Sequence record: PZ445406.1
From: a phage
Reading direction: 5' to 3' (one strand)
Length of the DNA: 47,149 bases
The position numbers and the translations under genes are program-made. Positions 43,486-45,609 of this stretch are shown here, piece by piece. The notes under the pieces are model-generated. The model was not told where the DNA came from. It saw nothing but the letters and a program-made list of their open reading frames with translations, and ran no database searches. Position 1 is the first letter of the stretch, and each line of letters opens with the position of its first letter.

Positions 43486-43563
43486 GCTCTGCTAGCTCAA
43501 CAGGACAGCAGCAACGACCTTCTAAGTCGTAGGTTACTGGTTCGAATCCAGTGCGGAGCGCCA
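43486..43563 (+). tRNA. tRNA-Arg (anticodon UCU)
   Basis: Hand-folded cloverleaf: 7-bp acceptor with one GU, anticodon arm ACGAC/CTTCTAA/GTCGT with U33 and A37, T-arm with GGTTCGAATCC, encoded CCA. Confidence 0.7.
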
Positions 43564-44000: not shown

Positions 44001-44043
44001 AAAGTGTTATACCCTCGTTAAGTTTCGTTTCTCTCGTTGTTTT

Positions 44044-44067
44044 AGCCCTCGCTTGAGGGCTTTTTTT
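44044..44067 (+). terminator. intrinsic terminator
   Basis: AGCCCTC-gctt-GAGGGCT hairpin plus T7. Confidence 0.65.
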
Positions 44068-44077
44068 CGTCTGTATG

Positions 44078-44106
44078 TTGACAATAATATATAGGTGCAT
44101 TAGTAT
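44078..44106 (+). promoter_or_regulatory. sigma70-like promoter
   Basis: TTGACA, 17-bp spacer, TAGTAT; directly after terminator. Confidence 0.5.
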
Positions 44107-44147
44107 TAACTCATCGGGGCGACCCACTAACCAGAAGGAGATTCAAA

Positions 44148-44387
44148 ATGATTACATTAAAAGCAATTCACAAAGATGGTAGCGAGCAGGTTTTTGAAGT
44201 TAAGAACTTCGGCCACAGAGCAATGCAGAACCGGATTGATGCTGTTGATTGTGATCGCGAGCCATTCAGTATTTACCTTAATGATGACTCGGTTGTCGTT
44301 GTGTACGCAATGAATTCGGCGGGTTCAACTGTTGGCAAGTACTTTTATTTTGATTCAGCAGGAGCCCGAGAAGATTACATATCTTAA
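44148..44387 (+). CDS. hypothetical protein
   Basis: sigma70-like promoter, AAGGAG SD, terminator downstream. Confidence 0.5.
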   Translation: MITLKAIHKDGSEQVFEVKNFGHRAMQNRIDAVDCDREPFSIYLNDDSVVVVYAMNSAGSTVGKYFYFDSAGAREDYIS

Positions 44388-44392
44388 AGCAT

Positions 44393-44415
44393 AGCCCCTT
44401 AATTGGGGCTTTTTT
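44393..44415 (+). terminator. intrinsic terminator
   Basis: AGCCCC-ttaatt-GGGGCT hairpin plus T6. Confidence 0.65.
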
Positions 44416-44436
44416 ACGTCTGCAGTATGGTATAAT
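44408..44436 (+). promoter_or_regulatory. extended -10 promoter for membrane peptide gene
   Basis: TGgTATAAT directly after terminator; weak -35. Confidence 0.4.
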
Positions 44437-44460
44437 CTGACCTCAAGAAAGGAGGATTTA

Positions 44461-44553
44461 ATGCATAATATTATTGCTACAATTATCTTTGGTGCCACTT
44501 GCCTATCATTTATCCTTGGCGTGGTATGGTTACTAACTTTATTGGGGTTTTAA
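44461..44553 (+). CDS. 30-aa hydrophobic membrane peptide (MHNIIATIIFGATCLSFILGVVWLLTLLGF)
   Basis: Extended -10 promoter and AAGGAGG SD 7 nt upstream; not in ORF track. Confidence 0.4.
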   Translation: MHNIIATIIFGATCLSFILGVVWLLTLLGF

Positions 44554-44557
44554 TGAC

Positions 44558-45064
44558 ATGAGCAAAGCAGCATTAAAGATGGGTGAGGGAAATTTCAAGG
44601 CACTCTACAACAAGAAGTATGGCGATATTGCTATGGTGGCAATCAACCGTAAGTATACGCCTGAGGAGGTTTTCGATTTCGCAGTGAGATACTTCTCCTG
44701 GGCTGAGGGTGAGGCAATTAAAGCCATTGAGACGGCGGCATTCCGGGGTGTGGTTAGTGAGAGCTTAGTGCACAAGCCTAGAGTGTTCACATTAACCGGC
44801 CTGGCACTATTCATGGGTGTTAACATCAATAGATTCGCTCGTTGGCGTGCTGAGGCTGGATACTCTGACGTGATGGAATTCATTGATAACGTAATCTACG
44901 AACAGAAATATCAGCTCTGCGTTGCAGGCATTATCAACTCCACCATTGTTGGTAAAGAGCTTGGCATTGATAAGCCGCAGGAGATCACCATTAGCAACAA
45001 CTCCACAGCCAACGACGTTGATAGCATGAAGGAAGCGCTTGAGTCTGTTATTGGTAAGTTGTAG
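44558..45064 (+). CDS. terminase small subunit (putative)
   Basis: 168 aa; position upstream of terL with an HNH gene between; call by synteny only. Confidence 0.45.
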   Translation: MSKAALKMGEGNFKALYNKKYGDIAMVAINRKYTPEEVFDFAVRYFSWAEGEAIKAIETAAFRGVVSESLVHKPRVFTLTGLALFMGVNINRFARWRAEAGYSDVMEFIDNVIYEQKYQLCVAGIINSTIVGKELGIDKPQEITISNNSTANDVDSMKEALESVIGKL

Positions 45065-45132: not shown

Positions 45133-45609
45133 ATGGATTGGGGTGATTTTTTCTATTTAAGCAGCGAATCTCCTAGTGGTCTAAAATGGAAAGTTGACAA
45201 AGGGAGGGTAAGGGCTGGCGATAACGCTATAACGGCAATTGGTAATGGCTATTACAAGGGCAGGTTAAACCAGGTGACTGTTTATGCCCACAGGGTAGTT
45301 TATTTTCTTGCGTACGGAGTAAAGCCAGAGGTAATAGATCACATTGATGGTGATGGCCTTAATAACTCAATAGACAATCTTCGAGACGGAACAACAAGGC
45401 AGAATATGCAAAACAGAGCGTGTAAGGGCTACAGCTACAACAAAAGGGATGACGTTTATTACGCGCAGATAACAAAGAATGGGGTGACTAGACATATTGG
45501 GTCTTTCTCCACAAAGGAATCAGCCATAGCTGCATACCTAAGAGAGAAGTCTTTAGTTCATGAGTTTTATAATGAGGAAAGAGATATATGCTCATCTGGG
45601 AAGAAATGA
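45133..45609 (+). CDS. HNH homing endonuclease (HNH plus AP2-like domain)
   Basis: HIDGDGLNNSIDNLR HNH motif and AP2-like C-terminus; stop overlaps terL ATG. Confidence 0.75.
   Translation: MDWGDFFYLSSESPSGLKWKVDKGRVRAGDNAITAIGNGYYKGRLNQVTVYAHRVVYFLAYGVKPEVIDHIDGDGLNNSIDNLRDGTTRQNMQNRACKGYSYNKRDDVYYAQITKNGVTRHIGSFSTKESAIAAYLREKSLVHEFYNEERDICSSGKK

What the first reader, a model, noticed from the sequence alone, without database searches (positions are those of the whole stretch)
44408..44553. 30-aa membrane peptide with its own promoter and strong SD just before terS
Directly after a terminator lies an extended -10 promoter, an AAGGAGG SD and a 30-aa wholly hydrophobic ORF (MHNIIATIIFGATCLSFILGVVWLLTLLGF). 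Stand-alone expression signals for such a small peptide point to a dedicated function, for example a membrane-targeted host-takeover or exclusion factor.
Basis: seen in the sequence. Interest (0 to 1): 0.45.

Follow-up and report, generated by a model that had tools for sequence, protein, structure and literature searches.

The report
Small membrane-peptide gene inserted before terS
A 30-codon gene for a single membrane-spanning helix sits on a ~98-base insertion, found in only two phage lineages, that landed between the terminase small-subunit gene and that gene's own ribosome-binding site; it is a rare, dispensable accessory gene, not a unit with its own expression signals.

Summary
The window is Escherichia phage JeanPiccard (Bas02, MZ501080.1). 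The ORF (44461-44553) is real and is already annotated as hypothetical protein bas02_0084. The terminator, the TGgTATAAT extended -10 and the AAGGAGG SD are all present as described.

They are not the peptide's own signals. They form the family-wide terS expression module. In 26 of 27 IMG/VR Drexlerviridae loci, in Rtp, IME253, EC3a and SU57, and in same-genus T145P1, the same SD lies 3-7 nt before the terS ATG. JeanPiccard and one other phage, IME542, carry a net 97-98-nt insertion between that SD and terS. The small ORF therefore takes the strong SD (-11.6 kcal/mol), and terS keeps a weak one (-5.9 and -4.0).

The two copies are as diverged as terS (88%). Nine of their 11 differences are synonymous in the ORF frame (P~8e-4), so it has evolved as a protein-coding gene. 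It encodes one uncharged helix (AF2 pLDDT 95).

It has no homologue among 1.84 billion representative proteins and matches no known family. In IME542 it is frameshifted after codon 13.

Best reading: a lineage-specific, non-essential small membrane peptide, translated as a new first cistron and coupled to terS. Its function is unknown, and nothing specifically supports host takeover or exclusion. Interest is low.

The parts
44393..44416 (+). Rho-independent terminator (hairpin 44393-44410 plus T run) ending the upstream Rtp18-like gene. It is part of the conserved terminator-promoter module upstream of terS.
   Evidence: 6-bp stem, 5 GC pairs, T run. An equivalent hairpin precedes the terS promoter in all aligned relatives.
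44428..44436 (+). Extended -10 promoter TGgTATAAT with no -35. This is the family-wide terS promoter, not one specific to the small ORF.
   Evidence: Seen directly. The TATAAT hexamer and flanking bases are invariant in the 6-phage alignment; the base between TG and TATAAT varies (G in five phages, C in IME542). The motif is retained as TGGTAAAAT or TGGTACAAT in loci with 50-65% terS identity. SU57's depositors annotated it as a promoter.
44449..44455 (+). Shine-Dalgarno AAGGAGG. Ancestrally the terS SD, here 5 nt upstream of the small ORF's ATG.
   Evidence: Anti-SD duplex energy -11.6 kcal/mol, identical to the terS SD of Rtp, EC3a, SU57, IME253 and T145P1, and in the strongest ~10% for long ORFs in this genome. 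Alignment.
44459..44557 (+). Lineage-specific inserted segment: 99 nt lie between GGATT and the terS ATGAGC, where relatives have 1-2 nt (net +97/98 nt). It is T-rich (43% T against 26% for the genome). It is flanked by the imperfect direct repeat GGATTTAATG (44454-44463) / GGTTTTAATG (44546-44555).
   Evidence: Alignment A1. Two-piece BLAST matches in all other relatives. The segment alone matches only JeanPiccard and IME542. Composition. No source elsewhere in the genome or in E. coli genomes.
44461..44553 (+). 30-codon ORF bas02_0084: MHNIIATIIFGATCLSFILGVVWLLTLLGF. It is a single uncharged hydrophobic helix with a small-residue face at A12-S16-G20.
   Evidence: Coding-type substitution pattern against IME542: 11 nt differences give 2 aa differences, against 9 in each other frame, P~8e-4. 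AF2 helix over residues 2-29, pLDDT 94.9. Small-xxx-small motif.
44544..44547 (+). Residual weak SD-like GGGG, formed by the Gly29 codon region of the small ORF, 10 nt before the terS ATG. IME542 has AGGA at the same place.
   Evidence: Duplex energy -5.9 kcal/mol (JeanPiccard) and -4.0 (IME542), against -11.6 in relatives.
44558..45064 (+). terS (terminase small subunit), now the second cistron. Its start lies 4 nt after the small ORF's stop.
   Evidence: PHROG 606 at E=1.7e-55 and Pfam GP3_package at E=4.8e-12. Annotated as terS in the record.

Best explanation
A segment of about 98 nt was inserted exactly between the Shine-Dalgarno sequence and the start codon of terS in an ancestor or donor shared by JeanPiccard and IME542. 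It carries a 30-codon gene.

Shown:
- The terminator, extended -10 promoter and AAGGAGG SD belong to terS in every other relative.
- In JeanPiccard they now drive the small ORF as a new first cistron.
- terS is left with a weak SD-like element made from the small ORF's last codons, and its start lies 4 nt after the small ORF's stop.
- The ORF has evolved under purifying selection on its amino-acid sequence.
- It encodes one uncharged hydrophobic helix long enough to span a membrane.

Inferred:
- The peptide is made abundantly, whenever terS mRNA is made.
- It inserts into the inner membrane as a single-pass helix.
- It acts there through helix-helix contact, using the A12-S16-G20 face, with a host or phage membrane protein.
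- terS is translated by termination-reinitiation (translational coupling) plus its weak SD. The insertion thus also lowers terS synthesis or ties it to translation of the small ORF.
- The gene is an accessory, not an essential gene. Most relatives lack it, and IME542 replicates with it frameshifted.
For: Conserved terS module and insertion:
- Alignment of 6 phages.
- 26 of 27 IMG/VR Drexlerviridae loci have the SD 3-7 nt before the terS ATG.
- Same-genus T145P1 lacks the insert.
- All other BLAST relatives match in two pieces and lack about 98 nt.
- The insert alone hits only JeanPiccard and IME542.

SD takeover: -11.6 kcal/mol for the small ORF, against -5.9 and -4.0 for terS in the two carriers and -11.6 for terS elsewhere.

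Coding selection:
- 11 nt differences, of which 9 are synonymous and 7 fall at codon position 3.
- 2 aa changes (H2S, I18V), against 9 aa changes in each alternative frame. Simulation gives P=8e-4.
- Divergence equals that of terS: 88.8% nt identity, with codon-position counts of 8/2/47.

Helix and hydrophobicity:
- AF2 helix over residues 2-29, pLDDT 94.9.
- GRAVY 1.95, zero charged residues, 57% T at codon position 2. Only 0.2% of shuffles are open and equally hydrophobic.

Dispensability:
- The frameshifted copy is present in IME542, in an independent 46.7-kb contig, and in 33 Logan contigs.
- No intact IME542-type variant is on record.
Against: - There are only two independent copies, so the selection test rests on 11 substitutions.
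- There is no expression data of any kind.
- The IME542 frameshift shows that the C-terminal 17 residues, the very part that carries the synonymous-change signal, are not needed in that lineage now. The peptide may therefore be decaying rather than functional.
- The peptide has no flanking positive charges, which is unusual for stable single-pass membrane proteins.
- No partner or phenotype is known.
- Coupling of terS translation is inferred from geometry only. The leader RNA shows no structure that would enforce it (z = +0.5 and -0.3).
Confidence: 0.6

Rival explanations
1. It is a cis-acting upstream ORF. What is selected is translation across the segment up to the terS start, which tunes or couples terS synthesis. 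The peptide is a by-product with no function of its own.
For: - Both versions stay open right up to terS. JeanPiccard's stop lies 4 nt before the ATG. The frameshifted 33-codon IME542 ORF ends in an ATGA overlap with the terS start.
- terS has lost its strong SD in both carriers.
- The IME542 lineage tolerates a completely different C-terminal half.
Against: - The substitution pattern shows selection on the amino-acid sequence in one frame (2 aa changes against 9 in the others, P~8e-4). A pure 'keep it open' constraint would not produce this.
- All other relatives express terS directly from the strong SD without any uORF.
- No RNA structure links the two starts.
- The shifted IME542 frame staying open for 20 codons is not improbable: roughly a fifth of comparable random or shuffled 29-codon stretches stay open.
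Confidence: 0.2
2. It is a membrane-active toxin or effector: a host-takeover, lysis-timing or superinfection-exclusion factor. It would be comparable to type I toxin peptides or the small lysis proteins of RNA phages.
For: - Its size and extreme hydrophobicity resemble Ibs, ShoB and TisB-class peptides and small single-gene lysis proteins (from general knowledge).
- The strongest class of SD predicts high expression.
- The small-xxx-small face suggests helix packing.
Against: - No match to any Pfam, NCBIfam, PADLOC or PHROG family. The best is PHROG 15285 at E=0.049, a non-significant match of one hydrophobic segment to another.
- There is no lipobox and there are no charged flanks (from the sequence).
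- It is not in the lysis cassette; the record annotates endolysin and u-spanin elsewhere.
- It is absent from nearly all relatives with the same host and the same LptD receptor.
- It is frameshifted in IME542 without loss of viability.
- Antisense promoter-like sites occur at chance level.
Confidence: 0.12
3. It is a neutral insertion scar. A T-rich fragment happened to be open in frame with the hijacked start, and it is tolerated but functionless.
For: - An open 30-codon frame arises in 17-20% of random sequence of this composition.
- T-rich sequence tends to encode hydrophobic residues.
- It has a patchy distribution, a frameshift in one of its two carriers, and no homologues anywhere.
Against: - The codon-periodic, mostly synonymous divergence (P~8e-4) accumulated over the same divergence as terS. 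This argues for a period of purifying selection.
- Only 0.2% of shuffles are both open and as hydrophobic.
- An insertion that strips terS of its strong SD should be costly unless compensated.
Confidence: 0.08

Closest known systems
Phage morons (accessory genes inserted between conserved genes, as defined for lambdoid phages such as HK97)
   Same: It is present in a few genomes and precisely absent from close relatives. It is inserted between conserved neighbours. Its composition is atypical (43% T against 26% for the genome). It is small and probably accessory.
   Different: A classical moron brings its own promoter and terminator. This insert brings neither. It uses the resident terS promoter and SD, and no terminator lies between it and terS.
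Upstream ORFs and translationally coupled cistrons in bacterial and phage operons
   Same: It is a short ORF on the same mRNA, and its stop lies 4 nt from the downstream start (an ATGA overlap in IME542). The downstream gene has only a weak SD.
   Different: Here the amino-acid sequence itself shows purifying selection. There is no stalling motif and no attenuator-type RNA structure. The arrangement is derived and rare rather than ancestral.
Small hydrophobic bacterial membrane peptides: type I toxins (Ibs, ShoB, TisB, Ldr, Hok) and small regulatory subunits (KdpF, AcrZ, MgtS, CydX)
   Same: It is about 30 aa and forms a single hydrophobic helix with a small-residue packing face.
   Different: There is no sequence match to any of these families. 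There is no antisense RNA or repressing leader. It has no charged residue at all. It is phage-encoded and strongly translated.
De novo membrane peptides arising from thymine-rich sequence (described for yeast proto-genes; recalled from general knowledge)
   Same: It is a T-rich segment with T concentrated at codon position 2, which gives a transmembrane-like peptide. It is an orphan with no homologues.
   Different: The origin of this segment is unknown. It may have been captured from an unsampled phage rather than born in place.

Membership tests
Moron (autonomous accessory-gene cassette) | Present in some genomes and precisely absent between the same flanking genes in close relatives | tested here: met
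   Only JeanPiccard and IME542 carry it. Rtp, IME253, EC3a, SU57, T145P1 and about 80 other records lack it.
Moron (autonomous accessory-gene cassette) | Own promoter upstream and own terminator downstream | tested here: not met
   The promoter and SD are the conserved terS signals. No terminator lies between the ORF and terS, only a 4-nt gap.
Moron (autonomous accessory-gene cassette) | Base composition differs from the surrounding genome | tested here: met
   T is 43% and G+C 34% in the ORF, against T 26% and G+C 44.5% in the genome.
Translationally coupled upstream ORF | Stop codon overlapping, or within a few nt of, the downstream start on one mRNA | tested here: met
   TAA at 44551-44553 and ATG at 44558. 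The frameshifted IME542 ORF ends in ATGA.
Translationally coupled upstream ORF | Downstream gene lacks a strong independent ribosome-binding site | tested here: met
   -5.9 and -4.0 kcal/mol, against -11.6 in relatives. The JeanPiccard value is still about the genome median, so some independent initiation is possible.
Translationally coupled upstream ORF | Downstream translation depends on upstream translation | not testable with these tools
   This needs reporter fusions with start and stop mutants of the small ORF.
Type I toxin peptides (Hok/Gef, Ldr, Ibs, ShoB, TisB, Fst) | Sequence membership in a described toxin family | tested here: not met
   No Pfam or NCBIfam hit even at E<=10.
Type I toxin peptides (Hok/Gef, Ldr, Ibs, ShoB, TisB, Fst) | Overlapping or adjacent antisense RNA that represses translation | tested here: inconclusive
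   Two weak minus-strand promoter-like sites (9 of 12 matches) lie inside the ORF. Such sites are at chance frequency in the region: 8 found against 9.1 expected.
Type I toxin peptides (Hok/Gef, Ldr, Ibs, ShoB, TisB, Fst) | Toxic on expression | not testable with these tools
   This needs an induction experiment.
Holin / antiholin / single-gene lysis protein | Located in the lysis cassette, or otherwise a transmembrane segment with a charged, usually basic, C-terminal tail | tested here: not met
   Endolysin and u-spanin are annotated elsewhere in the record. The peptide has zero charged residues.
Cor/Llp-type lipoprotein exclusion factors of T1/T5-like phages | Signal peptide with a lipobox [LVI][ASTVI][GAS]C | tested here: not met
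   The only Cys (C14) is preceded by G-A-T, which is not a lipobox, and there is no basic n-region (read from the sequence).

The most novel reading that the evidence does not exclude
The insertion is a dual-purpose innovation. First, it adds a new, selected single-pass membrane peptide with a specific partner, for example a host inner-membrane protein or a membrane-associated defence. Second, by taking over the terS SD, it makes synthesis of the packaging initiator depend on, and proportional to, translation of that peptide. It would then be a clean natural example of gene gain in the few nucleotides between an SD and a start codon, possibly by de novo birth from T-rich DNA.
Probability: 0.1. 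Interest if true: 0.45.

Novelty: new member of a known kind. Interest (0 to 1): 0.2.

Why it matters
As found, it matters little. It is one more orphan small hydrophobic ORF in a phage, already annotated as hypothetical, confined to two lineages and broken in one of them.

Two points have some value. First, it shows that a strong promoter and SD in front of a tiny ORF need not be dedicated to that ORF. Comparison with relatives shows that the signals belong to the next gene. Second, the geometry is neat: a gene inserted into the 1-2 nt between an SD and a start codon, demoting an essential packaging gene to a coupled second cistron. It could serve as a small, tractable case for studying gene gain and translational coupling in the BASEL collection, which is genetically accessible.

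Tried and rejected
- The search for related loci and the search for homologous proteins both refuse queries under 40 aa. I replaced them with degenerate back-translated DNA patterns for both halves of the peptide.
- **Pattern scans.** IMG/VR returned only IME542 itself. The metagenome and GTDB genome scans returned IME542-like DNA in one contaminated assembly, plus seven chance hits inside unrelated, longer or closed reading frames.
- **Exact-sequence look-ups.** These found only the GenBank record for the peptide and for JeanPiccard terS.
- **Full HMMER search.** Against 1.84 billion representatives the peptide hit only itself.
- **Family and structure libraries.** Pfam, NCBIfam, PADLOC and PDB sequence searches gave nothing significant. 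PHROG 15285 at E=0.049 is a non-significant match between hydrophobic segments.
- **Origin by duplication or host capture.** There is no similar DNA or peptide elsewhere in the genome or in 5,426 complete E. coli genomes.
- **Structured RNA element or riboregulator in the leader.** The folds are no better than shuffles.
- **Member of a repeated phage promoter family.** The full terminator-promoter module is unique in the genome.
- **The IME542 frameshift as a sequencing error.** Rejected, because the same extra T appears in an independent assembly and in 33 Logan contigs. Most of the Logan contigs come from one run series, so they are not independent lineages.
- **Programmed +1 frameshifting in IME542.** Considered, but nothing supports it.
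- **Link to LptD receptor use.** Rejected, because the LptD-dependent phages Rtp, AugustePiccard and OzMSK lack the insert.

Full report
**Identity of the window.** The window is a rotated copy of Escherichia phage JeanPiccard (Bas02, MZ501080.1, 47,149 bp; Drexlerviridae, Braunvirinae, genus Veterinaerplatzvirus). The record starts at the terS ATG, which is window position 44558. The phage belongs to the BASEL collection and uses LptD as its terminal receptor (PMC8594841).

**The observation.**
- a terminator hairpin at 44393-44410 with a T run;
- a perfect extended -10, TGgTATAAT, at 44428-44436, with no -35;
- AAGGAGG at 44449-44455, 5 nt before the ATG at 44461;
- a 30-codon ORF ending in TAA at 44551-44553, 4 nt before the terS ATG.

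The peptide MHNIIATIIFGATCLSFILGVVWLLTLLGF has no charged residue. Its GRAVY of 1.95 is the highest among 266 ATG ORFs of 20-60 aa in the genome. AlphaFold2 predicts one uninterrupted helix over residues 2-29, with mean pLDDT 94.9. The ORF is already annotated in GenBank as bas02_0084, hypothetical protein.

I aligned the region with Rtp, IME253, CEB_EC3a, SU57 and IME542. The terminator, the extended -10 and the AAGGAGGATT SD are conserved, with most of their bases invariant. In Rtp, IME253, EC3a and SU57 the SD is followed after 3-4 nt by the terS ATG.

The same layout holds in the same-genus phage T145P1. It also holds in 26 of 27 IMG/VR Drexlerviridae loci recovered with terS, down to about 50% terS identity. 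In the more distant loci the promoter reads TGGTAAAAT or TGGTACAAT and the SD AGAGGA or AGGAGG. The literature describes the late regions of T1-like phages as strings of modules bounded by terminators and containing σ70 promoters (PMC11447400). The module is therefore the terS expression module.

JeanPiccard has 99 nt between GGATT and ATGAGC, where relatives have 1-2 nt. The small ORF lies entirely on this extra segment and uses the resident SD. An imperfect direct repeat flanks the segment: GGATTTAATG at 44454-44463 and GGTTTTAATG at 44546-55.

**Distribution.**
- In 50,697 GenBank phage records the segment occurs only in JeanPiccard and in vB_EcoS_IME542 (genus Christensenvirus).
- Every other Braunvirinae record matches the flanks in two pieces and lacks about 98 nt.
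- Degenerate back-translated patterns for both halves of the peptide found only IME542 in IMG/VR.
- In the metagenome and GTDB genome collections they found only an IME542-like 46.7-kb contig inside a Nitratidesulfovibrio assembly, plus chance matches in unrelated frames.
- No complete E. coli genome carries the segment, and no similar sequence exists elsewhere in the phage.
- A full phmmer search of 1.84 billion representative proteins returned only the query.
- Pfam, NCBIfam, PADLOC and PDB gave nothing. PHROGs gave one non-significant match to a hydrophobic segment.

**Is it a real gene?** The IME542 copy has one extra T after codon 13. With that T removed, the two copies differ at 11 of 90 nt. 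Seven differences are at codon position 3, and nine of the 11 are synonymous. Only two amino acids change (H2S, I18V). The same differences would change 9 residues in either alternative frame. In 100,000 random placements of the same number and type of substitutions, two or fewer amino-acid changes arose with P = 8e-4.

The segment's divergence (88%) equals that of terS between the same two phages (88.8%, with codon-position counts of 8/2/47). The segment is therefore as old as that divergence, and it spent that time under purifying selection as a protein in the JeanPiccard frame.

T is enriched at codon position 2 (57%). Only 0.2% of shuffles of the segment are both open and as hydrophobic.

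**The frameshift.** The IME542 +T is real. It recurs in an independent assembly and in 33 Logan contigs, most of them from one run series. No intact IME542-type variant is on record. It yields a 33-codon ORF, MSNIIATIIFGATLPFICSRCGMVTNFTRILIT, whose TGA overlaps the terS ATG. The C-terminal half of the peptide is therefore dispensable in that lineage today, whereas an ORF reaching terS persists.

**Consequences for terS.** The anti-SD duplex energy is -11.6 kcal/mol for the small ORF and for terS in all insert-free relatives. It is only -5.9 (JeanPiccard, GGGG) and -4.0 (IME542, AGGA) for terS in the carriers. These weak elements are formed by the last Gly-Phe codons of the small ORF. Together with the 4-nt stop-start gap, or the ATGA overlap, this geometry is typical of termination-reinitiation coupling. 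That is an inference. The leader RNA is no more structured than shuffled sequence.

**Conclusion.**
- The reading that the ORF has its own promoter and SD, and therefore a dedicated function, is not supported.
- The most likely account is a lineage-specific, non-essential minigene that landed between the terS SD and the terS start. It is translated from the hijacked SD into a single-pass membrane helix with an A12-S16-G20 packing face, and it converts terS into a coupled second cistron.
- The peptide's own function remains unknown. Nothing points specifically to host takeover or exclusion.
- The rivals cannot be excluded with two sequences. They are a pure cis-acting uORF, a membrane toxin or effector, and a neutral scar, and I rank them in that order.

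It is a new member of a known kind (small orphan hydrophobic phage ORFs, moron-like insertions), of low general interest. The insertion geometry is a neat and tractable oddity.

Noticed in passing
window 44075-44387: The GenBank record splits this stretch into three tiny overlapping CDSs (bas02_0081, 0082 and 0083, of 35, 45 and 25 aa). A single 79-aa ORF at 44148-44387, with the SD AGAAGGAGA, is the orthologue of Rtp18 (67% identity, E=5e-28) and of an IME253 protein (55% identity). It matches PHROG 3909 (E=7e-14). This is probably a mis-annotation in MZ501080.1.
   Followed up: yes
window 44019-44110: A second terminator-promoter module lies here: hairpin AGCCCTCGCTTGAGGGCT at 44044-44061, then TTGACA-17-TAGTAT at 44078-44106. 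In EC3a, SU57, IME542 and T145P1 this same terminator directly precedes the terS promoter. The Rtp18-like gene and its promoter are therefore themselves a cassette that is present or absent among relatives, and the region just upstream of terS is an indel hot spot.
   Followed up: partly
window 45133-45609: An HNH homing-endonuclease gene (Pfam HNH_3, PHROG 99) sits between terS and terL. Rtp has one in the same place. IME542, EC3a, SU57 and IME253 have none, and in them terL follows terS after about 18 nt.
   Followed up: no
L011 (NZ_VSMK01000220.1, 46,669-bp contig); also MG065688 and PP134917: A near-complete IME542-like coliphage genome is deposited as a contig of a Nitratidesulfovibrio liaohensis assembly. 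Records named 'Campylobacter phage A110b' and 'Pseudomonas phage PsgS01F' are about 92% identical to E. coli Braunvirinae in this region. These are likely contaminants or host mislabels. T1-like phages are notorious laboratory contaminants (PMC13035648).
   Followed up: partly
L034-L047, about 60-25 nt upstream of terS (T1-like loci): In T1-group phages the terS promoter reads TGGTAAAATAGCACTAAATGTTAAAC. This overlaps the 21-nt direct-repeat consensus aaATAGCACnnnTTGnTAAAA, which is reported at 21 sites in phage TLS with unknown function (PMC11447400). The repeat begins inside an extended -10 (TGnTAAAAT), so those TLS repeats may mark extended -10 promoters that a -35/-10 search would miss.
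   Followed up: no
window 43486-43563: A tRNA-Arg (AGA) gene is annotated in the record (bas02_0078), about 1 kb upstream of terS. It is shared by many Braunvirinae.
   Followed up: no
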